From the IMG/VR virus record IMGVR_UViG_3300021197_001137, positions 1-61,953 of that record: 61,953 bases of DNA. One strand, given 5' to 3'. The first letter of the stretch is position 1. Each line of letters begins with the position of its first letter. Of the stretch, positions 16,221 to 24,370 are shown piece by piece. The DNA is from a virus. Lineage: Duplodnaviria; Caudoviricetes. The notes beneath the pieces are model-generated. The model searched no databases, was not told the origin of the DNA, and saw only the letters and a list, made by a program, of their open reading frames with translations. Position numbers and translations under genes: made by a program.

Positions 16221-16256
16221 TATATTATCGAAACAAGATCGTTTTTAGTTTGCAAA
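16221..16256 (-). promoter_or_regulatory. Early promoter repeat 1 (TTTGCAAAC-N6-CG-N10-GATAATATA)
   Basis: Matches consensus; 4 nt upstream of the sigma ATG. Confidence 0.75.
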
Positions 16257-16880
16257 CGGATTAACTTGTTGATTAAGTAATTCTTTTTCTTTTTTAAGTT
16301 CGTTACTCATATTTCTATATATGGTTCTAGTTGAACAACCTAAAGTATCTGCTAATTTAGCAACAGTTATTTTAATTTCATTGTCGTTTATTAATAGCAT
16401 TGCATCGTATATTTCATTTTCAGTAATGCCTTTACGACCGACTAACTTGCCAACTATAGAAAGCTTTTGTCGCATATCTAAACCGGTAAAGTCTTTAAAT
16501 ATAACTTTGCGCAGTTTATTAGGTGGTGGTTTTTCTAAATCCATAAGAGATACATCGTACACCATACTTTGTAGCAATTGATCTGATACTTTAAATGTTA
16601 CAAATCCTGTTCGCTTATCACATATGTATTTAGCTAACGCATTAAAGCCTTCTTGATCCAACTGAGGATTAAGATACCATAATACATACAAATGCCATTT
16701 AAGGCTCCTATATGTATTTATTTTGGCTCGTGAGTTGAACAGTGTATAGCATTGGTGCGTGCCGTCTTCGTAGTGCCATCCCCAATCAAATGTTTGTGTT
16801 GGTCTATCGGTTATAGGGTTTCGCCTGTATATTATACGATGCCTCTCTAGGTATTTGGTATTTCGGTCGTATTGTGACAT
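16245..16880 (-). CDS. DNA-binding protein with C-terminal HTH, possible replication initiator
   Basis: ITVAKLADTLGCSTRTIYRNM helix-turn-helix; a palindromic site overlaps its start codon. Confidence 0.65.
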   Translation of the reverse strand: MSQYDRNTKYLERHRIIYRRNPITDRPTQTFDWGWHYEDGTHQCYTLFNSRAKINTYRSLKWHLYVLWYLNPQLDQEGFNALAKYICDKRTGFVTFKVSDQLLQSMVYDVSLMDLEKPPPNKLRKVIFKDFTGLDMRQKLSIVGKLVGRKGITENEIYDAMLLINDNEIKITVAKLADTLGCSTRTIYRNMSNELKKEKELLNQQVNPFAN

Positions 16881-16919
16881 TAGGTTGTTACTATTAATTA
16901 TATATTATCTATCGTCGCA
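16873..16919. promoter_or_regulatory. 47-bp imperfect palindrome, copy A
   Basis: TGTGACATTAGGTTGTTA-AT core-TATCTATCGTCGCA; homologous to 22949 and 24666. Confidence 0.65.
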
Positions 16920-17141
16920 TTAGTAGATTAAAATCTTTAATCTTCTGTTGTACTTTCTTAAAAGCTTTGCTTTATTTTCTATGTTGCCATGCAAAACAGT
17001 TATGTTTTTATTAAAACTATATTCTCCTTTGAATGAAGCAGATACTATCTCATTATGAAGTAGTAGTATTCTGTTTTCTAGAAACCTTACGTGCTTTACT
17101 TTTCTTCTGTTCTTTTTGTATCTTCGTATTAATGTTTGCAT
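16920..17141 (-). CDS. Hypothetical basic protein
   Basis: ORF track. Confidence 0.6.
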   Translation of the reverse strand: MQTLIRRYKKNRRKVKHVRFLENRILLLHNEIVSASFKGEYSFNKNITVLHGNIENKAKLLRKYNRRLKILIY

Positions 17142-17623
17142 AATTCGTTGATGTTATGTGGTCGTATAATTTTTTGCTCATCTTTATTTTTTACTGTGTG
17201 TTTTTCGTTTTCGTAATAATTCCAATATCCCAACACGCTGTTGCCCGATACTTTGTATTGATCAGGCATACATTGTGGTGGTTGCTTAAATTCATCATTA
17301 GGTATATTGTTAGGCAATGTGTATAGCAAATCACGGCACTTAGTTATTGTTAAGTGATGTTTGCCATACCGCTTAGTATATTCTTGACCCAAAGCCAGCA
17401 TGTGCTCATAAGCCCACATATACGCTTCAGCCGAGGATCTTACCCATATAGCTGAAGGGTGGTTTTTATGTGTAGCTTTGTACGGTATATCAATGTTGGA
17501 ACCAAGCTCGTGATGTGCCGTACATAATAATTGTGCGGTTTCAAGAATCATTTTAACAACGTGCTTGTTGTATTGATATTGTGCTGCTTTCTTAGGGTCG
17601 TGAGACAAATAAAAGATATTCAT
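17129..17623 (-). CDS. Pyrimidine-dimer DNA glycosylase (DenV/Pyr_excise)-like protein
   Basis: MNIFYL..HVVKMILETAQLL, YKATHKNHPS, EYTKRYGKHH, PQCMPD family signature. Confidence 0.7.
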   Translation of the reverse strand: MNIFYLSHDPKKAAQYQYNKHVVKMILETAQLLCTAHHELGSNIDIPYKATHKNHPSAIWVRSSAEAYMWAYEHMLALGQEYTKRYGKHHLTITKCRDLLYTLPNNIPNDEFKQPPQCMPDQYKVSGNSVLGYWNYYENEKHTVKNKDEQKIIRPHNINELCKH

Positions 17624-17624
17624 A

Positions 17625-17915
17625 TTAAAGTCTTTTAAGTTTATTTTCTAGTATTTTTAATTTGTTATGTATTATAGCTGCTTTTTCGTATTGTTCATTT
17701 TCTTCGTAAGATGACAATAGGGTCATAAGTCTAGCTATCTCAGCGAGTATTAACTCTTCTTCATTAACTAATCTAGCATTACCAAAACCGTCTTGTGTTA
17801 GTTCATTAAGATCTGTTGTAAACTGTTGATCCCATTCTTTTTGCTTTTCTATAAGCCCTTCTAACACTAATTCAGCAACGCGATTAGCTAATTTTTCTAG
17901 TTCTTCTTCGTTCAT
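17625..17915 (-). CDS. Acidic protein with C-terminal UVR (UvrB/UvrC) coiled-coil-like motif
   Basis: EENEQYEKAAIIHNKLK. Confidence 0.55.
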   Translation of the reverse strand: MNEEELEKLANRVAELVLEGLIEKQKEWDQQFTTDLNELTQDGFGNARLVNEEELILAEIARLMTLLSSYEENEQYEKAAIIHNKLKILENKLKRL

Positions 17916-18142
17916 TAATTTAATTTAGTATAAGTAAATTTACCTAATATAAATTGATTTAAAAATTTACCTTTAGAACCAGATTCAAATAAACCTCGCC
18001 AAAAGAATAGAGGTATACTAGAATATTTGTATATACCATCGTTGGTAAAATAAACTATCATTTCATTTTTGTTTAAATTGTACTCAGCACTACTTATAGC
18101 GGTTGAGTCGTCAATCATAAGTGTTTCAATTGTGTTTGCCAT
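17915..18142 (-). CDS. KTSC-domain protein
   Basis: STAISSAEY..MIVYF..GIYKY..IP...SGSKGKFLN pattern. Confidence 0.8.
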   Translation of the reverse strand: MANTIETLMIDDSTAISSAEYNLNKNEMIVYFTNDGIYKYSSIPLFFWRGLFESGSKGKFLNQFILGKFTYTKLN

Positions 18143-18156
18143 ATTTATTTATTTAT

Positions 18157-18192
18157 TATATTATCTATTATTATTCGTATTATGTTTGCAAA
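18157..18192 (-). promoter_or_regulatory. Early promoter repeat 2
   Basis: Consensus match upstream of ATG 18142. Confidence 0.75.
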
Positions 18193-18798
18193 TTAATGGA
18201 ATACTAATCCCACTTTGTTAGTTCTATTAAACCATCTTGTGGCGTAGAGGTCAACAGATGAAGCATCAGTATAGCCAGCAGATACAAGATCGCTATGACT
18301 AGAAAAGATTTTGGTATGTCTGTGTTTTCTTTCATTTATTAAATGTTTTTGTTTACCTGAGTCACTAAATATGATATCGTAATTATCTGGTAATGAAGAC
18401 TTTAGAATCATATCGATCATATTGGTATAACTGTAAAACCGCACGTCCGGATTGTGTATAGCAATCTCTATCCACTTTTTTAGATATGCGCGAGAGTAGT
18501 AATCGCCACTATCATGGACTCTGACGTAATCAGGTTTCTTCTTACGTATTTCAGCGTTCATAGCTTCGACAAAGTTGTCAGTCTTTGTTAACTGATAACG
18601 CTTTTCAAACGCCGGTTTTACATTAGACCAGATGTAGGCTCCTTTCTTGGCATAACAGAATTTAACGCAACTGTCAGCCATGGGGCACGTCAGTTTCCCG
18701 CTAGCAGATTTGTAGGCAGGAATACCGAAGTTAAAAACCCGAAGCCCGAGTTCTTTAGATGTCTTTTTTAATTTAGAGTTTTGAGTAAGTAAATTCAT
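18193..18798 (-). CDS. GP88-like protein (CxxxxxCxxxCYA, radical-SAM-related)
   Basis: NSKLKKTS, TCPMADSCVKFCYA, VRVHDSGDYYS, FYSYT. Confidence 0.7.
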   Translation of the reverse strand: MNLLTQNSKLKKTSKELGLRVFNFGIPAYKSASGKLTCPMADSCVKFCYAKKGAYIWSNVKPAFEKRYQLTKTDNFVEAMNAEIRKKKPDYVRVHDSGDYYSRAYLKKWIEIAIHNPDVRFYSYTNMIDMILKSSLPDNYDIIFSDSGKQKHLINERKHRHTKIFSSHSDLVSAGYTDASSVDLYATRWFNRTNKVGLVFH

Positions 18799-18800
18799 AA

Positions 18801-19100
18801 TTAATCTAATAATACCATATAAGCTTCTGAGTTGTTCGATCTAAACCAACTAAGTGCTTTATGAAATTCACTAATTTGTTTTCTTGTTACGGTTTTAGGT
18901 GCAACCTCCATGACATACTGAGTACCCATTATAAAATCGTACATAGATAACTCGACGTTATTTAGTGTATAGCATTCGCCACTGAAAACGTTTTGTACTT
19001 CATCGCCTTTGTCGTATATTATACCTTTAAACCATGCAGGTAACTTTGTTTTATTCTTCGTCATTGTCTTGTACTTTAAATACTGATTCAACATAGTCAC
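18801..19100 (-). CDS. Hypothetical early protein (true start may be the internal MTKNK)
   Basis: ORF track; ends WFRSNNSEAYMVLLD. Confidence 0.65.
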   Translation of the reverse strand: MTMLNQYLKYKTMTKNKTKLPAWFKGIIYDKGDEVQNVFSGECYTLNNVELSMYDFIMGTQYVMEVAPKTVTRKQISEFHKALSWFRSNNSEAYMVLLD

Positions 19101-19407
19101 ATATAGCTTCTTCTAAATCGTCGGTGTAATTAAACTCTAAACTACCCAATTCTAGCTGGTTGTTATAGTTAATCTCAAAGTCATACTCGTAGTTATCTGT
19201 ATTGCTAAAGTCATAATTACTTACGGCTTCATAAACCTGTTGACGCATGGCGTCACGAGTTTCTTTAGTTATTACTGGTTTACTTACATCTTCAAGATCT
19301 TGTGTTGCTTGATTAAGTTGTTTTTGAAGTTCGTCTTGATCGGTTTTAAATTGAGCTAACGCTGCGGTTAACTCTTTTACTTTTAATTCTAATTGTTCTT
19401 TAGTCAT
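19051..19407 (-). CDS. Hypothetical coiled-coil/acidic protein
   Basis: ORF track. Confidence 0.7.
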   Translation of the reverse strand: MTKEQLELKVKELTAALAQFKTDQDELQKQLNQATQDLEDVSKPVITKETRDAMRQQVYEAVSNYDFSNTDNYEYDFEINYNNQLELGSLEFNYTDDLEEAICDYVESVFKVQDNDEE

Positions 19408-19410
19408 GAT

Positions 19411-19629
19411 TTATAATTTATTATTTAATTCTATTATTTTAGCGATATATTTCCATACTTCACGATCACGTAAAGTACCAGTATACAATAAAGCCATTTG
19501 TTCGTGATCTAAACCACCATATAATTTATTTTGAATATCGCTTTTTAATCGGTCAATATCAAAATTTAACATGGCTATTTTAGCGAAGGCTTTATTGCTT
19601 GCTCGTTCTTGTAATTCGGTATTACTCAT
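19411..19629 (-). CDS. Hypothetical early protein
   Basis: ORF track. Confidence 0.7.
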   Translation of the reverse strand: MSNTELQERASNKAFAKIAMLNFDIDRLKSDIQNKLYGGLDHEQMALLYTGTLRDREVWKYIAKIIELNNKL

Positions 19630-19876
19630 AATCTTTTGAGATTAAGATGTTGTCACCGTACTTAAAATCCCACGCTGAAACTTTGATAAGCTCAAGGTTG
19701 GAAAACGTGTATAGCGAGCTAATGTCACTAATTTTTAAGTTTTGATAAAACGTAGTGCTTGAGAAAGCTTCAACTATGCTTTCCACACTTGTTTGATACT
19801 TTGCATTTTCAGGTGAATGTAATGCTTCTTTGATTTCAGGTCTTAGCCTTTCGTAAACTGTAAGTCTTCTACTCAT
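19622..19876 (-). CDS. Hypothetical early protein
   Basis: ORF track; directly downstream of promoter repeat 3. Confidence 0.7.
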   Translation of the reverse strand: MSRRLTVYERLRPEIKEALHSPENAKYQTSVESIVEAFSSTTFYQNLKISDISSLYTFSNLELIKVSAWDFKYGDNILISKDYE

Positions 19877-19896
19877 ATTTATTTAATTTAATTTAT

Positions 19897-19932
19897 TATA
19901 TTATCGTTACTCTGTCGTATTTTGTTTGCAAA
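19897..19932 (-). promoter_or_regulatory. Early promoter repeat 3
   Basis: Consensus match. Confidence 0.75.
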
Positions 19933-19933
19933 A

Positions 19934-20137
19934 TTAATCTTGGTATCTTTTAAGTGTCATACTATTTACCTTATTAATGATTTCATTACCCACTGAAGTG
20001 AAATAACCAGGTGCATATATAGATCTTTTACCATCAGCCTCAGCGGCTAATACATCTTTTTCTGCTTCTTCGATAGCGTGTCTTAACGCTGTTTGTATGA
20101 AATACTTTTCAAATCCGTTAAATTTAGTTTTACTCAT
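19934..20137 (-). CDS. Hypothetical early protein
   Basis: ORF track; A-rich leader. Confidence 0.7.
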   Translation of the reverse strand: MSKTKFNGFEKYFIQTALRHAIEEAEKDVLAAEADGKRSIYAPGYFTSVGNEIINKVNSMTLKRYQD

Positions 20138-20157
20138 TTTATTTAATTTTAAATTAG

Positions 20158-20306
20158 TGGACGTGGCAGGAATCGAACCTGCGTTTTCAAAGGGTAATAA
20201 CTATTGAGTGTTTTTAGATTCCTGAGTTCATAACGATCCCTCGCCAGTTCACTTGCATTATCACTCGCATTACTACTCGATACTTTGAGCTAACCATTTC
20301 ACGCCC
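20158..20306 (-). ncRNA. tRNA-like / mini-tmRNA-like RNA (~149 nt) with Ala-type acceptor stem
   Basis: 5' GGGCGUG pairs with CACGUCC-A (G3·U70, discriminator A); T-arm GCAGG-UUCGAUU-CCUGC; no D-stem; long helix UCAAAG/CUUUGA, GUAAU/AUUAC, GAGUG/CACUC replaces the anticodon arm. Confidence 0.7.
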
Positions 20307-20310
20307 AAAT

Positions 20311-20530
20311 ACCCAGACATTTCCTAAGCGCGGTGCACCACTGTCGTTAAACCGGTGCGCGTCTTTGTTATTTATTCGCTGGGTTTGCTAGCTATTCACT
20401 TATGTAATTTAGGTACCATTTATCGTGGTATCTTTACGGTATATACCCACCTAAATCCTAATTAAGTTACTCGTCTAGCTATTTACGTCGCCAAGCTCTG
20501 TGAACACTAACAGATACTTTTTGGCTGACG
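20311..20530 (-). ncRNA. Three consecutive structured RNA domains upstream of the tRNA-like RNA
   Basis: Closed stems at 20486-20530, 20389-20481 and 20311-20384, separated by ~4-nt linkers; no ORF in the track. Confidence 0.55.
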
Positions 20531-20554
20531 ATAGTTATTTATTTTTTGTTCATA

Positions 20555-20590
20555 TATATTATCGTATAGGTGACGTTTTACGTTTGCAAA
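20555..20590 (-). promoter_or_regulatory. Early promoter repeat 4 (drives the non-coding RNA array)
   Basis: Consensus match, followed by ~400 nt without a long ORF. Confidence 0.75.
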
Positions 20591-20591
20591 T

Positions 20592-20786
20592 TTACATCTT
20601 CCTAGTTTGATGGTACATAATTTCGATCGCTCGTTGCATTGTCTCAGCGTGTATAGCAACGTAATCATCGCCATCTGCCTCATATTCAGATAGTTGCCAA
20701 TCTACGCTATCATACATTAGTTCTAGTGTAACGTCAGCAACACCTTGCGCTACTTCGTTAAGGTTTATTTTTTCAGTCATATTCAT
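20592..20786 (-). CDS. Hypothetical acidic early protein
   Basis: ORF track 20592..20825; ATG start MNMTEK preferred. Confidence 0.65.
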   Translation of the reverse strand: MNMTEKINLNEVAQGVADVTLELMYDSVDWQLSEYEADGDDYVAIHAETMQRAIEIMYHQTRKM

Positions 20787-20940
20787 AAATTTCTGGGTCG
20801 GTATGTGCCATCCACTCGATACCACTTAACCTAAAACCCCGGTCAATAATTACTTCTTCATATCCTTCGGTACTCATACCCTCTAATACTTCTATACGAG
20901 ATACGAGACCATTTTCAAAATCTAATATTGTTATATACAT
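20773..20940 (-). CDS. Hypothetical acidic protein (55 aa)
   Basis: Hand translation MYITILDFENGLVSRIEVLEG...IEWMAHTDPEIYEYD. Confidence 0.6.
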   Translation of the reverse strand: MYITILDFENGLVSRIEVLEGMSTEGYEEVIIDRGFRLSGIEWMAHTDPEIYEYD

Positions 20941-20945
20941 GGTGT

Positions 20946-21140
20946 TTAGAATAATGAGGAGTATACTTCCTCGTTAACAAAATCATAGTGCTCATCATTG
21001 ATGAAGTCTATTTCTTTTTCACTTAGCTCTCTACCGTCATAGTTTGCGGCTACTAAAAATGCATCTACAAAATCTGGGTAGTCTGCGAAATCGATCCCGT
21101 CGAATTCCATATTTTCTACTTTTCTTAAATCTAATTTCAT
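20946..21140 (-). CDS. Very acidic small protein
   Basis: ORF track; DGIDFADYPDFVDAF motif. Confidence 0.7.
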   Translation of the reverse strand: MKLDLRKVENMEFDGIDFADYPDFVDAFLVAANYDGRELSEKEIDFINDEHYDFVNEEVYSSLF

Positions 21141-21141
21141 A

Positions 21142-21417
21142 CTATTTACAGTTTTCTTCGTTAAAATCTAGTAATCTTCTTACTCGATCGGCATGGTTAG
21201 GTATTAACTTTCTTTCATAGTTAAACCCCCACTTGCTTTTTGGGTCATACCAGTTTTTAGTTTGTCTATTTATTTGGTACATTAACCGTTTTTTGTGGTA
21301 ATAGTTATCTGATTTAGTAGATACTCTTACATAACCACTAGGGTAAGTTGCACCAATTCTTCCATCACTCAATTTAAAATGTAGAGCTCCATCTTTAGTT
21401 ACTTTAATTAATTCCAT
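21142..21417 (-). CDS. Hypothetical early protein
   Basis: ORF track. Confidence 0.7.
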   Translation of the reverse strand: MELIKVTKDGALHFKLSDGRIGATYPSGYVRVSTKSDNYYHKKRLMYQINRQTKNWYDPKSKWGFNYERKLIPNHADRVRRLLDFNEENCK

Positions 21418-21638
21418 CTTTTCGTATTATCTTTTAAATAGTTAATATTAGGGTTTGCATCTATACTTTTAGCGACACTTTGCCTTAATTCCCACTCACG
21501 TTTGCGATAAACGGGATCGGTACACCACTTTTTCCAGGCTTTACTTACTTGTTTTTCACCGTATTTTGCTTCAAACTCTTTAACTTGTTTGAGTTTAGCG
21601 GCGATCTGGTCGGCTGGGTAATCTTTATACTGGGACAT
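21408..21638 (-). CDS. Hypothetical early protein
   Basis: ORF track 21408..21779; ATG MSQYKDY chosen to avoid a long overlap. Confidence 0.6.
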   Translation of the reverse strand: MSQYKDYPADQIAAKLKQVKEFEAKYGEKQVSKAWKKWCTDPVYRKREWELRQSVAKSIDANPNINYLKDNTKRWN

Positions 21639-21819
21639 AGGTGAATCCTTTATAGTTAAACCAGTTTGTAATACCGTCTTGGTCTTTGTCTTCATTATAT
21701 ATAAAGGCAAATGTGTTTGGTAAATTACCGATAGTGTACGGTTTGTATTGTGTACCGTTGAGGTGAATGTGTATAGCACCTGTAGTACTATCTTTCTTAA
21801 ATTTAATTGTGTTCGTCAT
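21625..21819 (-). CDS. Hypothetical early protein
   Basis: ORF track 21625..21846; ATG MTNTIKF preferred. Confidence 0.65.
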   Translation of the reverse strand: MTNTIKFKKDSTTGAIHIHLNGTQYKPYTIGNLPNTFAFIYNEDKDQDGITNWFNYKGFTYVPV

Positions 21820-21836
21820 AATAATAGTTTTAATAA

Positions 21837-21926
21837 TTAATACCAAGTTGTTTCAGAAGGAGCCTTACCTACTTCTATTTTTATACTTTTTATTTTAAGT
21901 ATTACAGTGTGAATAAATTTTCTCAT
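21837..21926 (-). CDS. Micro-ORF (29 aa) directly after promoter repeat 5
   Basis: Hand translation MRKFIHTVILKIKSIKIEVGKAPSETTWY. Confidence 0.45.
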   Translation of the reverse strand: MRKFIHTVILKIKSIKIEVGKAPSETTWY

Positions 21927-21934
21927 ATTTTTAT

Positions 21935-21970
21935 TATATTATCGTTAGGTGTTCGTTTTTAGTTTGCAAA
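21935..21970 (-). promoter_or_regulatory. Early promoter repeat 5
   Basis: Consensus match. Confidence 0.75.
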
Positions 21971-22258
21971 TTTGAATTCTTTAATATATACTTTTTTACC
22001 TGTTACTTCTTGTACACCACCATTTACTGCTTTTACAACAGATCGAATTAGGTGCATTGGGCTATTATAGTCATATATACAATCTGGTAAGTTAGGTCCA
22101 CGCCATCCACATTGCATGTTACTTATAGCGAAGCTTGTACCTTGGCTATTGGTGAAACTATAACCCACCATTCCGCTTTCGTTTTCGTACACAAATAGTG
22201 TTTTAGGGTTCGATCCACTGCGTTGTGCAGTATTTACTTTAGCAATTAGTTTTCTCAT
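21959..22258 (-). CDS. Hypothetical early protein
   Basis: ORF track; ends FAN* inside promoter repeat 5. Confidence 0.7.
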   Translation of the reverse strand: MRKLIAKVNTAQRSGSNPKTLFVYENESGMVGYSFTNSQGTSFAISNMQCGWRGPNLPDCIYDYNSPMHLIRSVVKAVNGGVQEVTGKKVYIKEFKFAN

Positions 22259-22260
22259 AA

Positions 22261-22515
22261 TTATATAGTTTTAAAAGTTTTTTCATGATAAAAGGTGTGA
22301 ATACGGTTTGAGAATTTTTGGTCACTCCAGAGCTTGGTGTGGGAATAAGTTCTGCCTTTACTACCAGCACCTTTACTTTTAACTCTCAGACGAAAGTATT
22401 CTTTCTCCGTCAACCCGCTACAGAAATCACCTTTAGTTACTTCTAATCGGTGCTTGCGGTTCTTCTCTATTCTTGAGTTTTTAACGTACTCACACGCTTC
22501 TTTCATTGTCATCAT
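22261..22515 (-). CDS. Hypothetical basic early protein
   Basis: ORF track. Confidence 0.7.
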   Translation of the reverse strand: MMTMKEACEYVKNSRIEKNRKHRLEVTKGDFCSGLTEKEYFRLRVKSKGAGSKGRTYSHTKLWSDQKFSNRIHTFYHEKTFKTI

Positions 22516-22518
22516 AAT

Positions 22519-22602
22519 CTACTTATTATTGTTTATTAGCCACATTAACTGTGCATACTCTTCATACTCTAATTCACTATTAAATCCGTAATATTCTTTC
22601 AT
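22519..22602 (-). CDS. Micro-ORF (27 aa)
   Basis: Hand translation MKEYYGFNSELEYEEYAQLMWLINNNK; fills the gap between neighbours. Confidence 0.45.
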   Translation of the reverse strand: MKEYYGFNSELEYEEYAQLMWLINNNK

Positions 22603-22604
22603 AA

Positions 22605-22808
22605 TTACTTTGTTGTAAAGGTTGATGGAAATTGGGATACCATAAATTTCGCTAAGCCTAATCCGTCGTTTGCCTGCTCCGCTATGTATTTAGCGATATT
22701 ATCTTGCATTTCAAATAAGTCATCTTGGCAATATTGGTCACACAAGAAGAATCGGTCGTTACCCATTAACTCACAAAGTTTAGTGATAAATAATACATTT
22801 TTAGTCAT
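22605..22808 (-). CDS. Hypothetical early protein
   Basis: ORF track; follows promoter repeat 6. Confidence 0.7.
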   Translation of the reverse strand: MTKNVLFITKLCELMGNDRFFLCDQYCQDDLFEMQDNIAKYIAEQANDGLGLAKFMVSQFPSTFTTK

Positions 22809-22832
22809 AATAGTTGTTATTTTAAATTCATA

Positions 22833-22868
22833 TATATTATCGATTCGGTGACGTAATTTGTTTGCAAA
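22833..22868 (-). promoter_or_regulatory. Early promoter repeat 6
   Basis: Consensus match. Confidence 0.75.
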
Positions 22869-22948
22869 AAAGTATACACTTTGTTTAGTAGTAAAAATAG
22901 TAGTACAGGTATTACTCTCTATCTCTAAGTACCTAAAAAAAAATATAC

Positions 22949-22996
22949 TGTGACAATAGGTTGTTAAGTATAATATAGTAACTAGCTAATGTCGCA
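22949..22996. promoter_or_regulatory. 48-bp imperfect palindrome, copy B
   Basis: TGTGACAATAGGTTGTTA-AT core-TAACTAGCTAATGTCGCA. Confidence 0.65.
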
Positions 22997-23027
22997 CTTT
23001 TCTTCGTGCCCTTCGTCTACCGAAAGT

Positions 23028-23222
23028 TCTTTTTGATCGTATTTCACCGTGTATAGCATTTCGAAACACTCACGTAGGACGGAGTCTACTCTTCCGGTGT
23101 ATAGCAAATATACCCAGGCCAAAAAGATCTGTTTATTTATTTACCCATCAAGGTAGTGTCGGGCACTCACTTTCGTGAGGTAGAGTTTTATGGTCATTCA
23201 CCAACCCGAACACCCCTGAGGG
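23028..23222 (-). ncRNA. Second cluster of structured RNA domains (two three-way junctions)
   Basis: Stems GGUGUUCGGG/CCCGACACU, CUCAC-GAAA-GUGAG, UGGU/ACCA; UCUUUUUG/CAAAAAGA, CACCG/CGGUG; no ORF in the track. Confidence 0.5.
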
Positions 23223-23231
23223 AAAGTAAAC

Positions 23232-23540
23232 CTATTTTTCAAGGTCTACTCTATCAATTACTACTTGTCTCACATTACTTGGCATATCAGTACTTTGAGA
23301 CCAATACCCTCTTTTAATCCAACAAGGCATGATGTTTAGTTTAGGTAACATTACTTTTAATACCTCATCATGATTATAGGTAATCTTTTGATTTTTGTTG
23401 TTGGTAAAGGTAATGATTTGATTTCTACCGTACCAACTTTTTCTTACCACAAAGTTTTTTCGAGTGATTGGTGGAAAGATTGCTGATAATTCTTTCTTTG
23501 ATAGTTTTGAAATTGATTTGTTTAATAATTCAGTGTTCAT
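23232..23540 (-). CDS. Hypothetical early protein
   Basis: ORF track; follows tandem promoter repeats 7 and 8. Confidence 0.75.
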   Translation of the reverse strand: MNTELLNKSISKLSKKELSAIFPPITRKNFVVRKSWYGRNQIITFTNNKNQKITYNHDEVLKVMLPKLNIMPCWIKRGYWSQSTDMPSNVRQVVIDRVDLEK

Positions 23541-23581
23541 AATTTATTGTATTTAAAGATTAATATTTATTTATTTTCATT

Positions 23582-23617
23582 TATATTATCGAATACTATT
23601 CGTACTTTGTTTGCAAA
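23582..23617 (-). promoter_or_regulatory. Early promoter repeat 7
   Basis: Consensus match. Confidence 0.75.
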
Positions 23618-23669
23618 TTTGGTTTTATTATTTTAATTTTAGTATTCATAGTTTTATTTGTTATTCATA

Positions 23670-23705
23670 TATATTATCGAAAACTATACGTACTACGTTT
23701 GCAAA
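23670..23705 (-). promoter_or_regulatory. Early promoter repeat 8
   Basis: Consensus match, 88 nt from repeat 7. Confidence 0.75.
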
Positions 23706-23706
23706 G

Positions 23707-23739
23707 TGCTATACGCAGTATGCTATACATGCTATACGC
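23707..23739 (+). repeat. Three clustered TGCTATAC copies
   Basis: TGCTATACGC (23707), TGCTATACAT (23721), TGCTATACGC (23730); reverse complement of the dispersed GTGTATAGCA core. Confidence 0.7.
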
Positions 23740-23810
23740 GTTGCGTACCGCGGAGTATACTCTTCCGCTCCTATTTCAAAAGCAGGCCGTAAGCCAGGAT
23801 CCCGAACCTG

Positions 23811-23981
23811 TTACTGATCCAGGATCTCGACGCCGATCACTTTGCTCGTGATCTCATTGCTGTAGCACACACGCAGATAGTTATCCAGATGCTGCTCGTT
23901 GCTGAACCGAACCACGCGACTGTTGTAGTTGCCGCGCCAGTTCTTCGTGTCGATACGAACCAGCATTCTAGTAGAAGTCAT
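23811..23981 (-). CDS. Hypothetical protein (56 aa) with GC-rich codons
   Basis: Hand translation MTSTRMLVRIDTKNWRGNYNSRVVRFSNEQHLDNYLRVCYSNEITSKVIGVEILDQ. Confidence 0.6.
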   Translation of the reverse strand: MTSTRMLVRIDTKNWRGNYNSRVVRFSNEQHLDNYLRVCYSNEITSKVIGVEILDQ

Positions 23982-24087
23982 AGTATATATCCAGCACTTC
24001 AGATCGTTGCTCAGATGTTAATTTCGAATAGCACTTCTTGTAGATTCGCATGCTAATTTTGTAAAGGGTGTAAGAATAGTTTGACAT
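23968..24087 (-). CDS. Hypothetical protein (39 aa)
   Basis: Hand translation MSNYSYTLYKISMRIYKKCYSKLTSEQRSEVLDIYYDFY; follows promoter repeat 9. Confidence 0.55.
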   Translation of the reverse strand: MSNYSYTLYKISMRIYKKCYSKLTSEQRSEVLDIYYDFY

Positions 24088-24114
24088 AATTATTATTTTT
24101 ATTTGTTATACATT

Positions 24115-24150
24115 TATATTATCGTTGTTTACTCGTGTTGCGTTTGCAAA
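24115..24150 (-). promoter_or_regulatory. Early promoter repeat 9
   Basis: Consensus match. Confidence 0.75.
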
Positions 24151-24153
24151 GCT

Positions 24154-24312
24154 CTAGCCGTAGATGCCAAAGCTGGATGGAGCGCCGTGCTCGATCATGT
24201 GCGCTACGATCGCGATCAGGCTCAGGCCGATGAATGCTGTCGTGCCGTATACCACGATGCCAGCTGCGATGTTAATGATCTTGTTGTGGTGGAATGTTCT
24301 ATTAGTTTTCAT
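24154..24312 (-). CDS. Single-pass membrane protein (52 aa), first gene of the early arm
   Basis: MKTNRTFHHNKIINIAAGIVVYGTTAFIGLSLIAIVAHM...; ATG downstream of promoter repeat 10. Confidence 0.6.
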   Translation of the reverse strand: MKTNRTFHHNKIINIAAGIVVYGTTAFIGLSLIAIVAHMIEHGAPSSFGIYG

Positions 24313-24334
24313 AAGTATTATTTTTTTATTCATA

Positions 24335-24370
24335 TATATTATCGAGTGGATAGCGTAGTACGTTTGCAAA
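24335..24370 (-). promoter_or_regulatory. Early promoter repeat 10
   Basis: Consensus match. Confidence 0.75.

What the first reader, a model, noticed from the sequence alone, without database searches (positions are those of the whole stretch)
20311..20530. Promoter-driven array of three further structured RNA domains co-transcribed with the tRNA-like RNA
Seen (minus strand, after promoter 4): domain 1 CGUC-A-GCCAA..UCUG/CAGA..UUGGC-GACG. Domain 2 UAGCUA/UAGCUA, ACUUA/UAAGU, UUUAGGU/ACCUAAA closing a three-way junction (GGUAUAUACC and ACCA/UGGU hairpins). Domain 3 ACCCAG/CUGGGU enclosing GCACC/GGUGC. Domains are separated by ~4-nt linkers, the last directly before the GGGCGUG 5' end. Inference: a polycistronic early small-RNA operon of a class I do not recognise, possibly anti-defence decoy RNAs.
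Basis: partly seen in the sequence, partly recalled or inferred. Interest (0 to 1): 0.75.

Follow-up and report, generated by a model that had tools for sequence, protein, structure and literature searches.

The report
Phage RNA module array with relic
Just upstream of a marine phage's tRNA-like RNA lie two genuine, evolutionarily conserved folded RNA modules of unknown function, while the third supposed RNA domain is only the leftover tail of a small gene that this phage has deleted.

Summary

- **Domain 1 (20530-20486) is a gene relic.** In 42 of 59 related viral stretches the same sequence is the last 17 codons of a 62-codon zinc-ribbon gene. The window carries an in-frame 135-nt deletion of codons 1-45.
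- **Domains 2 (20479-20387) and 3 (20384-20311) are real structured-RNA families.** Compensatory base changes support both. I found 67 and 16 distinct copies in uncultured marine phage contigs. No copy of domain 2 has a T-arm on the opposite strand.
- **They are absent from other collections searched.** I found no match in Rfam, in GenBank phage records or in prokaryote genomes.
- **They work as scaffolds.** Their tips carry exchangeable, even nested, "cargo" hairpins. The same cargos also sit inside the neighbouring tmRNA-like domain.
- **Domain 3 has a fixed position.** It usually ends 1-5 nt before a tRNA-like 5' end (12 of 16 copies).

Co-transcription from the repeated early promoter motif and release by RNase P are inferred from conserved gene order, not shown. 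Function is unknown, and the decoy idea is untested. First-reader notes of this scan flag similar arrays on four other genomes.

The parts
20555..20590 (-). Early promoter-like motif (TTTGCAAAC ... ACG ... CGATAATATA), one of 10 minus-strand copies in 16.2-24.4 kb
   Evidence: Searches give the copies and the alignment. The same motif type precedes the homologous cassette in 20 of 21 related loci. Promoter activity is inferred, and the spacing does not fit sigma-70.
20479..20532 (-). Relic of a 62-codon zinc-ribbon gene: last 17 codons plus the TAG stop (20481-20479). It has no start codon because ATG is fused to ATC by an in-frame 135-nt deletion.
   Evidence: 42 of 59 related stretches encode ...IVSQEVSASVHRAWRRK* here. 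Variation is synonymous, including AGY/TCN serine codon switches; the closest relative L229 has the same promoter and leader followed by the intact gene; no intact copy in the window; contigs X15 record 6 and X16 record 11 carry the undeleted form.
20387..20479 (-). Domain 2 scaffold: outer helix P1 (20479-20475 / 20391-20387), conserved internal loop (ACGAGUA / GAAUAG), helix P2 (ACUUA / UAAGU), second conserved internal loop, then a cargo site
   Evidence: 17 sequences, 95.3% of 170 cells paired, 4 of 10 pairs with compensatory changes, 0 of 500 shuffles reach the covariation score. RNAalifold finds the same helices; 67 distinct copies; 57 of 67 have a T-arm downstream on the same strand, none on the opposite strand.
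20407..20456 (-). Three-way-junction cargo module carried by domain 2 (stem AUUUAGGU/ACCUAAAU with two hairpins)
   Evidence: 7 distinct copies, 93.3% of 105 cells paired, 3 of 15 pairs compensatory. Four copies sit in domain-2 scaffolds and three sit inside the central arm of the tRNA-like domain of other phages (L017, L019, L030). A variant lies at about 23210-23160 (-) of the window.
20311..20384 (-). Domain 3 scaffold: outer helix ACCCAGC / G(U)CUGGGU, conserved strands GAAUAAAUAACA and AGGAAAU, inner cargo hairpin (GCACCG/UGGUGC)
   Evidence: 16 distinct copies; 14 sequences, 4 of 7 outer-stem pairs compensatory, 19 cells, 0 of 500 shuffles; 12 of 16 copies end 1-5 nt before a tRNA-like domain, with four acceptor types.
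20307..20310 (-). AUUU linker. The predicted RNase P cut lies between 20307 and 20306.
   Evidence: in 56 distinct junctions the base before the tRNA-like 5' G is T (39) or A (17), never G or C. Cleavage itself is inferred from established tRNA/tmRNA processing.
20155..20306 (-). Adjacent tmRNA-like tRNA-like domain (context, subject of another finding)
   Evidence: Rfam tmRNA 32.3 bits, below the gathering score of 47, E 4e-11. The sequence has G3:U70 and A73. ARAGORN finds none.
19934..20137 (-). Next ORF (67 aa) of the same presumed transcription unit (context)
   Evidence: A near-identical start of this ORF follows the tRNA-like gene in L231, L236 and L237.

Best explanation
The 220 nt are the 5' leader of an early, largely non-coding transcription unit. 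Its order is promoter motif, relic, domain 2, domain 3, tag-less tmRNA-like domain, 67-aa ORF.

1. **Domain 1 is a decaying remnant (shown, about 0.95).** An in-frame 135-nt deletion removed codons 1-45 of a small zinc-ribbon gene. In most relatives that gene is the first cistron of this cassette.
2. **Domains 2 and 3 belong to two phage-specific structured-RNA families (shown, about 0.9).** Each is a hairpin scaffold with sequence-conserved internal loops. The tip accepts exchangeable and even nested cargo hairpins. The same cargos occur in the central arm of the tRNA-like domain, so the modules are shuffled among scaffolds and phages, presumably by recombination.
3. **The leader is probably made as one RNA with the tRNA-like domain (inferred, about 0.6).** RNase P would cut at the AU-rich linker before G20306. 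This would release an RNA that ends in the closed stem of domain 3. AU-rich linkers could allow further separation of the modules.
4. **The released modules would act in trans early in infection (speculative, about 0.3).** They would serve as stable protein- or RNA-binding elements such as decoys or scaffolds. The tRNA-like gene would serve as the processing handle.

The overall confidence of 0.55 is for the composite of points 1 to 3.
For: **Relic**
- 42 of 59 stretches that share the tRNA-like 3' end encode ...IVSQEVSASVHRAWRRK* at this place. Variation is at third positions and includes serine AGY/TCN switches.
- In 40 distinct sequences none of the 10 stem pairs changes on both sides.
- L229 has the same promoter and A-rich leader followed by ATG and the whole gene. 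The window reads ...AACT-ATC-GTC.
- tblastn finds only the 19-residue tail in the window.
- The relic carries two amino-acid changes seen in none of the 39 intact versions. One of them also breaks a stem pair.

**Domain 2**
- Searches give the compensatory changes and the independent RNAalifold prediction.
- In 67 distinct copies, 670 pair cells comprise 572 Watson-Crick, 67 G-U, 2 A-C and 29 other.
- 57 of 67 copies have a T-arm within 900 nt downstream on the same strand, and 0 have one on the opposite strand.
- Inserts range from a GAAA-capped stub to 130-nt nested modules.

**Domain 3**
- Searches give the covariation.
- 12 of 16 copies abut a tRNA-like 5' end.

**Cassette**
- In 7 of 21 loci with a relative of the upstream 77-aa gene, the promoter motif is followed directly by RNA modules and a tRNA-like gene, with no zinc-ribbon ORF. 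In 13 of 21 the zinc-ribbon gene comes first.
- No terminator-like site lies inside the unit.
- The -1 base is U or A in 56 of 56 junctions.

**Weak evidence**
- Assembled contigs from RNA libraries of four studies contain domain 3 (all four runs laid) and the domain 1 region of relatives.
Against: - No transcript start, end or processing site has been observed. The RNA-library data are contigs, which may derive from DNA and come mostly from relatives.
- The promoter motif does not fit sigma-70 spacing, and its activity is untested.
- Domains 2 and 3 fold no better than shuffled sequence in this window.
- 62 of the 67 G-U pairs in domain 2 come from a single conserved position, so the strand argument rests largely on that pair and on orientation.
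- Copies of domains 2 and 3 were collected with patterns that contain parts of the conserved strands. Domain 3 copies were also kept only if at least 7 of 8 outer pairs formed. Percent-paired figures are therefore inflated. The compensatory changes are not affected.
- The 7-sequence junction alignment is small: 57 of 500 shuffles reach its count of compensatory pairs.
- Nothing bears on a trans-acting or decoy function.
- The tight adjacency of domain 3 to the tRNA-like 5' end fits a cis role at least as well.
Confidence: 0.55

Rival explanations
1. Domains 2 and 3, and especially domain 3, are cis-acting leader elements of the tRNA-like RNA. They would insulate its fold, guide or delay RNase P processing, or protect the precursor. 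They would have no life of their own after cleavage.
For: 12 of 16 distinct domain 3 copies end 1-5 nt before a tRNA-like 5' end, across four different acceptor types. 57 of 67 domain 2 copies have a T-arm within 900 nt downstream. The linkers are short and AU-rich.
Against: Many tRNA-like copies have no such leader and follow a gene directly, for example L021, L056, L060 and L064. Domain 2 position and number vary. The modules carry diverse cargos with conserved loops, which a mere insulator would not need. A related junction module sits in a second non-coding cluster of the window with no tRNA-like gene nearby.
Confidence: 0.25
2. The hairpins are DNA-level palindromic mobile or recombinogenic elements (MITE-like) that nest into each other's loops. 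The RNA folds would be a by-product.
For: Modules are nested and shuffled between contexts and phages. The plus strand of the window folds as well as the minus strand.
Against: Orientation is never inverted relative to the tRNA-like gene: 0 of 67 copies have a T-arm on the opposite strand. The internal loops are asymmetric and sequence-conserved. G-U pairs number 67 against 2 A-C. Compensatory changes keep the helices while the helix sequence changes. In the loci examined the modules lie in intergenic spacers behind a promoter motif.
Confidence: 0.07
3. Domain 1 is retained because its hairpin works as an RNA element, such as a 5' stabiliser or processing site, so that all three domains are functional RNA.
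For: It is the most stable part of the region (z -3.31). It survived a deletion that ended exactly at its 5' edge. In the 40 distinct sequences 360 of 400 stem cells still pair, and G-U (51) far outnumbers A-C (2).
Against: No stem pair shows a compensatory change in 40 distinct sequences. A at third positions breaks pairs freely (38 non-pairs). Serine codon-family switches conserve the peptide, not the helix. The window's own copy has a substitution that breaks a pair. Seven related cassettes lack it altogether.
Confidence: 0.1
4. The region encodes small proteins. One candidate is the mini-frame that runs through domain 2 and ends at UAA. It might be a tmRNA-style tag or a leader peptide.
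For: A short frame, GCU AGA CGA GUA (G/A)CU UAA, lies in domain 2. Its end resembles the end of tmRNA tag frames; that resemblance is recalled and was not tested.
Against: No ORF of 30 aa or more lies on the minus strand inside 20311-20530. Changes in P1 and P2 alter the putative codons (Ala to Val, Thr or Gly) but are compensated on the other strand. The frame lies outside the tRNA-like domain, a topology incompatible with trans-translation.
Confidence: 0.03

Closest known systems
Small stable RNAs of the phage T4 tRNA gene cluster (species 1 and 2, rnaC/rnaD). Recalled; not checked in a paper or a model here.
   Same: Phage-encoded structured RNAs of unknown function. They are co-transcribed with tRNA-type genes and presumably cut out by the host tRNA-processing enzymes.
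   Different: No sequence or model comparison was possible. The RNAs here are scaffold-plus-cargo hairpins with nested, exchangeable modules. They accompany a tag-less tmRNA-like domain rather than a set of decoding tRNAs.
GOLLD and ROOL ornate large RNAs of phages and prophages (preprint 10.1101/2024.12.08.627333, search listing and abstract only; their position near tRNA genes is recalled)
   Same: Phage-borne, highly structured, non-coding, function unknown.
   Different: The Rfam search gave no match to any family over the modules in the window or in 18 related loci. That Rfam holds GOLLD and ROOL models is recalled. The units here are 45-190 nt hairpins arranged in tandem, not one 600-800 nt RNA.
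'TLD only' tmRNA of mycobacteriophage DS6A (PMC4131195 and PMC11915505, passages read)
   Same: This is the neighbour of the finding, a tmRNA tRNA-like domain without a tag frame. Such a molecule is reported to inhibit host tmRNA.
   Different: It concerns 20306-20155, not the 220 nt examined here. No leader modules are described in the passages I read.
Two-piece tmRNA of OM43 phage Melnitz, carrying a glutamine riboswitch and lying behind an early promoter (PMC9004378, passages read)
   Same: A marine phage tmRNA-type gene directly downstream of an early promoter that carries an extra structured RNA domain.
   Different: That extra domain is a known aptamer class (glnA motif) inside a complete tmRNA. 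Here the modules match no Rfam family and precede a tag-less domain.
Candidate structured RNAs mined from IMG/VR intergenic regions (PMC10690425, passages read)
   Same: Same data source and same kind of object: short covarying motifs in phage intergenic regions, some tRNA-like.
   Different: I cannot tell whether domains 2 and 3 or the junction are among them. The passages I read mention no modular arrays next to tmRNA-like genes.

Membership tests
Any Rfam 15 family (including tmRNA, tRNA, self-cleaving ribozymes, riboswitches, GOLLD, ROOL) | Covariance-model score at or above the family's gathering score over 20311-20530 | tested here: not met
   0 matches in the window; at E up to 10 the only overlap is RefA9 at 17.8 bits (gathering score 49); in 18 related loci only three true tRNAs match.
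Conserved structured RNA (generic criterion) | Helices kept through compensatory changes in homologues, beyond shuffled and slid controls | tested here: met
   Domain 2: (4 of 10 pairs, 0 of 500 shuffles, slid controls at most 44% paired). Domain 3 outer stem: (4 of 7 pairs). Junction cargo: (3 of 15 pairs, small sample). Domain 1: not met (0 of 10 pairs).
Conserved structured RNA (generic criterion) | Folding energy better than shuffled sequence | tested here: inconclusive
   Whole region z -2.44, but z -2.92 on the other strand. Domains 2 and 3 alone give z -1.21 and -1.24.
Protein-coding gene remnant (domain 1) | Homologous sequence is in frame within an intact ORF in relatives, with codon-wise variation, and the ORF is truncated here | tested here: met
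   The protein family has 177 clusters, all unnamed and without a Pfam domain. Pfam gives no hit for it at E below 0.07.
RNase P substrate leader (5' leader of a tRNA/tmRNA-type precursor) | Acceptor stem plus T-arm immediately downstream, and a single-stranded linker before +1 | tested here: met
   Searches show the acceptor and T-arm; 4-5 of the 5 bases before +1 are A/T in 51 of 56 junctions, and -1 is never G or C.
RNase P substrate leader (5' leader of a tRNA/tmRNA-type precursor) | Cleavage at +1 by RNase P | not testable with these tools
   Needs an in vitro assay or 5'-end mapping.
Type III toxin-antitoxin antitoxin RNA (ToxI-like) | Tandem direct repeats of a short unit next to a toxin endoribonuclease gene | tested here: not met
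   no tandem repeat inside 20311-20530. The only one (12 nt, 2-2.5 copies) lies in the tRNA-like domain.
MITE-like palindromic DNA element | Insertion in either orientation, with symmetric arms | tested here: not met
   0 of 67 copies have a T-arm on the opposite strand. Searches show asymmetric conserved loops and 67 G-U against 2 A-C.
tmRNA mRNA-like domain | Tag frame located between the 5' acceptor strand and the T-arm, with coding-type conservation | tested here: not met
   The region lies 5' of the acceptor stem. Variation in the mini-frame is compensated on the opposite strand of the helix rather than being synonymous.

The most novel reading that the evidence does not exclude
These uncultured marine phages would carry a combinatorial RNA 'construction kit'. 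It has at least three conserved scaffolds: the domain 2 hairpin, the pre-tRNA-like domain 3 hairpin, and the central arm of the tag-less tmRNA-like domain. Many kinds of cargo hairpin are swapped and nested into these scaffolds. The array would be transcribed early and cut into stable pieces by the host's own tRNA-processing enzymes. It would be an RNA counterpart of the protein anti-defence islands of phages, each cargo a decoy or aptamer for a different host factor.
Probability: 0.2. Interest if true: 0.85.

Novelty: new variant of a known kind. Interest (0 to 1): 0.6.

Why it matters
Phage small RNAs that travel with tRNA genes have been known since T4 (recalled), yet their purpose remains unknown. 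This locus offers a large natural comparative series:

- dozens of phages with the same cassette position;
- a variable set of covarying modules;
- natural 'minimal' and 'loaded' versions of each scaffold;
- natural deletions, such as the lost zinc-ribbon gene in this window.

Together these make questions about module function, processing and exchange directly testable.

The case also gives a practical warning for RNA gene finding. The thermodynamically best hairpin in the region is a dead gene fragment, while the two genuinely conserved RNAs fold no better than shuffled sequence.

If the cargos prove to bind host factors, the system would be a new class of RNA-based host manipulation. It would also be a natural analogue of tRNA-scaffolded aptamers.

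Tried and rejected
**Searches that found nothing**
- Rfam at gathering and at permissive thresholds gave nothing for the modules.
- ARAGORN found no tRNA or tmRNA in the window.
- GenBank phage records gave no match to the 1-kb region at E 1e-5. At E up to 1 only the T-arm matched tRNA genes, and nothing matched domains 1-3.
- The domain 2 pattern in 185,579 prokaryote species genomes gave one match. By its sequence it lies inside a long coding-looking stretch of an archaeal MAG with no 3' half of the motif, so I take it as chance.

**Host identification**
- A tblastn search with a 627-aa late protein gave only weak, partial matches to phages of many hosts. The host is left open.

**Zinc-ribbon protein**
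- Pfam gave no significant family.
- Its 177 relatives are all unnamed.
- A resemblance of its CxCG...CxxC pattern to TraR/DksA zinc fingers is recalled only and was not confirmed.

**Readings rejected**
- A mini-frame in domain 2 as a tmRNA-like tag (see rival explanations).
- A ToxI-like repeat RNA.

**RNA libraries**
- Runs X15, X16, X19 and X20 hold only small shares of the stretch (0.16, 0.14, 0.08 and 0.07).
- When laid, they gave short contigs over single modules, mostly from relatives. These cannot show transcription, ends or abundance.
- Parts without cover, and the depth of 89.8 on one 157-nt contig, are not used as evidence.
- The marine habitat rests on word shares of DNA runs that I did not lay.

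**Literature**
- Three full-text searches found no description of these modules.
- They were not exhaustive.
Full report
**Setting.** The window is a 61,953-bp IMG/VR viral contig, rated 97% complete, with about 35% G+C. Genes on the minus strand from about 5.9 to 24.4 kb are replication and early-type genes: ribonucleotide reductase, thymidylate synthase, primase-helicase, ERF and a sigma-like protein.

Between the stop of a 77-aa ORF (20592) and the start of a 67-aa ORF (20137) lie about 450 nt. The only minus-strand ORF of 30 aa or more that reaches into them is a 58-aa frame (20507-20683) overlapping the 77-aa gene, and none lies inside 20311-20530. The order is:
- a copy of a repeated motif (20590-20555);
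- the 220 nt of the finding (20530-20311);
- a 4-nt linker;
- a tmRNA-like tRNA-like domain (20306-20155).

The tRNA-like domain scores 32.3 bits against Rfam tmRNA, below the gathering score of 47, and has G3:U70. It is the subject of an earlier finding of this scan, and I treat it as context.

**Observation.** Stability is not decisive, however.
- The other strand folds equally well.
- Taken singly, only domain 1 beats shuffles (z -3.31).
- Domains 2 and 3 do not (z -1.21 and -1.24).

The promoter-like motif is real as a repeat. There are ten minus-strand copies with invariant TTTGCAAAC and nearly invariant GATAATATA. Its spacing does not fit sigma-70, and its activity is inferred. The scan found no terminator-like site between it and the tRNA-like domain.

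**Relatives.** An exact search for the 26-nt T-arm and acceptor 3' strand found 59 stretches of IMG/VR contigs, mostly from contigs of 40-70 kb. BLAST of the 220 nt against them found three patterns:
- domain 1 in most of them;
- domain 2 in about fifteen;
- domain 3 nearly identical in one (98.5% in L010), with part of it in another.

The window is therefore a mosaic of modules with different nearest relatives.

**Domain 1 is a gene relic.** In 42 of the 59 stretches the homologous 52 nt are the in-frame 3' end of a 62-codon ORF. The ORF has the form MYC(R/K)CG...C..C...HKTGNTIQIVSQEVSASVHRAWRRK*.

Across 40 distinct sequences:
- the peptide is almost invariant, while codons vary at third positions;
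- the serines switch between AGY and TCN codons;
- none of the 10 stem pairs changes on both sides;
- A at third positions breaks pairs (38 non-pairs of 400 cells).

This is protein-level constraint. The hairpin is a by-product of the peptide and codon usage.

I then fetched 21 loci that encode relatives of the upstream 77-aa protein. The closest, L229 (82% identity), has the same promoter motif and the same A-rich leader ...AAATAACT, followed by ATG and the complete gene. The window reads ...AAATAACT-ATC-GTC-AGC. So 135 nt (codons 1-45) are missing, and the start codon has become ATC.

Further points agree:
- Two contigs from RNA libraries (X15 record 6 and X16 record 11) also carry the undeleted arrangement. 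One has 133 extra letters at exactly this joint.
- The window has no other copy of the gene.
- The relic carries two amino-acid changes (E to K, A to V) that none of the 39 intact versions shows. One also breaks a stem pair, as expected for a sequence drifting without constraint.
- The protein family is large (177 clusters) but unnamed and without a Pfam domain.

**Domain 2 is a conserved RNA scaffold.** Seventeen copies from the first set align through two conserved strands that flank a variable middle.

For the two helices that I named from the alignment:
- 95.3% of 170 cells pair;
- 4 of 10 pairs show changes on both sides (10 cells);
- none of 500 shuffles reaches the covariation score (0.212 against a mean of 0.088);
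- sliding the 3' partners drops pairing to 15-44%.

RNAalifold, run independently, predicts the same helices plus the base of the variable stem. It finds 7 of 14 pairs with compensatory changes. The outer helix is GCUAG/CUAGC, with variants such as GCCAG/CUGGC, GUCAG/CUGAC and GUUAG/CUAAC. The second helix switches C-G to G-C in three sequences.

A pattern search for the conserved 5' strand found 70 IMG/VR stretches. Together with the earlier loci these give 74 copies, 67 of them distinct. In these 67 copies, 670 pair cells comprise 572 Watson-Crick, 67 G-U, 2 A-C and 29 other. Two caveats apply:
- 62 of the G-U pairs are one conserved position;
- the second helix lies partly inside the search pattern, so its near-invariance is partly by construction. 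The outer helix does not.

Orientation is strict. 57 of 67 copies have a T-arm motif within 900 nt downstream on the same strand, one has it upstream and none has it on the opposite strand. Ten have none, and three copies without a downstream hit have under 400 nt of locus left.

The internal loop between the helices reads ACGAGUA opposite GAAUAG. It contains the AGUA/GAA signature of loop-E / sarcin-ricin-type motifs. That identification is recalled, not tested.

**Scaffold and cargo.** The middle of domain 2 ranges widely:
- a bare GAAA-capped stub in three copies;
- single hairpins;
- doubly nested modules of about 130 nt. For L087 the fold shows successive closing stems.

The window's cargo is a three-way junction (20456-20407). 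Seven distinct copies keep its three helices, with 93.3% of 105 cells paired and 3 of 15 pairs compensatory. The sample is small, and 57 of 500 shuffles reach that count of pairs. Four of these copies sit in domain 2 scaffolds. Three sit inside the central arm of the tRNA-like domain of other phages.

Other cargo types are shared between scaffolds in the same way. For example, a module of the window's own tRNA-like domain insert is the domain 2 cargo of L026. A variant of the junction lies in the window's second non-coding cluster at about 23210-23160 (-), where no tRNA-like gene is near.

**Domain 3 is a second scaffold with a fixed position.** Copies share the strands GAAUAAAUAACA and (AGG)AAAU, closed by an outer helix with a one-base bulge. 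I kept 16 distinct copies, and the filter required at least 7 of 8 outer pairs, so percent-paired is circular.

In 14 aligned copies, 4 of 7 outer pairs change on both sides (19 cells). The helix appears as CCCAG/CUGGG, GUGCAG/CUGCAC and GGGAG/CUCCC. None of 500 shuffles reaches the covariation score, and RNAalifold predicts the same helix.

The inner part again varies as cargo. A short form of the motif occurs as the insert of the tRNA-like domain in L029, L042 and L050, and in the leader of L030.

Twelve of the 16 copies end 1-5 nt before the 5' end of a tRNA-like domain. Four different acceptor types are involved. I cannot explain this adjacency. It is the main argument for a cis role of domain 3.

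**Cassette and processing.** The 21 loci with a relative of the upstream 77-aa gene fall into three groups:

| Loci | Arrangement after the promoter motif |
|---|---|
| 13 | zinc-ribbon gene, then (in those whose printed stretch reaches past it) RNA modules |
| 7 | RNA modules and a tRNA-like gene, with no zinc-ribbon ORF |
| 1 | different |

In L231 a sequence that looks like a canonical tRNA takes the place of the tRNA-like domain. This is by eye only, since I did not run ARAGORN on it. In L231, L236 and L237 the same downstream ORF as in the window follows. A promoter-led, largely non-coding unit is therefore a recurrent arrangement, and the window reached it by deletion.

In 56 distinct junctions the base before the tRNA-like 5' G is U (39) or A (17). 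The five preceding bases are at least four-fifths A/U in 51 of 56. This fits an RNase P substrate; the preference for U at -1 is recalled. Cleavage, transcript ends and stability were not observed.

**Distribution.**
- Nothing in Rfam matches the modules.
- Nothing in 50,697 GenBank phage records matches beyond the T-arm.
- The domain 2 pattern has one, apparently chance, match in 185,579 prokaryote species genomes.
- DNA runs holding at least half of the sampled words come from marine, seawater and sponge metagenomes of six studies besides the possible source.
- Contigs from RNA libraries of four studies contain domain 3 (X15, X19, X20, and X16 joined to a T-arm with a different insert) and the domain 1 region of relatives. 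Being contigs, they do not prove transcription.

**Comparison with the known.** The neighbouring tag-less tmRNA-like domain has a precedent in mycobacteriophage DS6A (PMC4131195 and PMC11915505, passages). A marine phage tmRNA that carries an extra aptamer and sits behind an early promoter is described for Melnitz (PMC9004378, passages).

For the leader modules I found no description in three full-text searches.

The nearest functional analogues are the T4 tRNA-cluster stable RNAs and the ornate phage RNAs GOLLD and ROOL. Both comparisons are recalled. First-reader notes of this scan describe similar tiled arrays next to mini-tmRNAs on four other genomes. I did not test those.

**Verdict.** Co-transcription and RNase P release are plausible but inferred, and function is unknown. 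The most likely reading is a processed early small-RNA array. A cis leader role, especially for domain 3, is the main rival.

Noticed in passing
window 23028-23222 (-): A second non-coding cluster lies after ORF 23232-23540 and before the promoter copy at 22868. Its first junction (about 23210-23160) is a variant of the domain 2 cargo junction. It resembles the cargo of L105, with changed but still complementary hairpin stems. No tRNA-like gene is adjacent.
   Followed up: partly
window 20155-20306 (-) and loci L011, L033, L041, L049, L054, L055: The insert of the window's own tRNA-like domain is built from modules that stand alone in the leaders of other phages (L049, L054, L055). Conversely, these modules are shared as inserts with L011, L033 and L041. 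A 12-nt unit is repeated 2-2.5 times at 20249-20279.
   Followed up: partly
L017, L018, L019, L198 (leaders): Some relatives carry a second, different tRNA-like scaffold inside the leader. Its acceptor-like stem is AACUAG/CUAGUU and it has its own T-arm. One cassette can therefore hold two tRNA-like units plus several hairpin modules.
   Followed up: no
L231: At the cassette position where the window has the tmRNA-like domain, L231 has what looks by eye like a canonical tRNA with a CAU anticodon loop. The same downstream ORF follows it.
   Followed up: no
L012 2403-2588 (-) and 41 other loci: The zinc-ribbon protein (62 aa, CxCG...CxxC) is nearly always the cistron directly before the RNA array. 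Its UAG stop often overlaps the first base of the domain 2 outer helix. A second, divergent zinc-ribbon type directly precedes the tRNA-like domain in L027, L056 and L064. The family has 177 clusters, no name and no Pfam domain.
   Followed up: partly
window 16221-24370 (-): The ten promoter-like copies have about 20 bp between TTGCAA and GATAAT, which does not fit sigma-70 spacing. The same motif type (TTTACAAA...ACGA...GATAATATAAATG) is conserved in relatives.
   Followed up: partly
run X16, record 10: A 157-nt contig from a metatranscriptome covers the zinc-ribbon 3' end of a relative at word depth 89.8. Neighbouring contigs have depths of 3-14. This is not interpretable from contigs alone.
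   Followed up: no
window 20311-20530: Method note. The only thermodynamically outstanding hairpin (domain 1, z -3.31) is the non-functional relic. The two covariation-supported RNAs are not distinguishable from shuffles by energy.
   Followed up: yes
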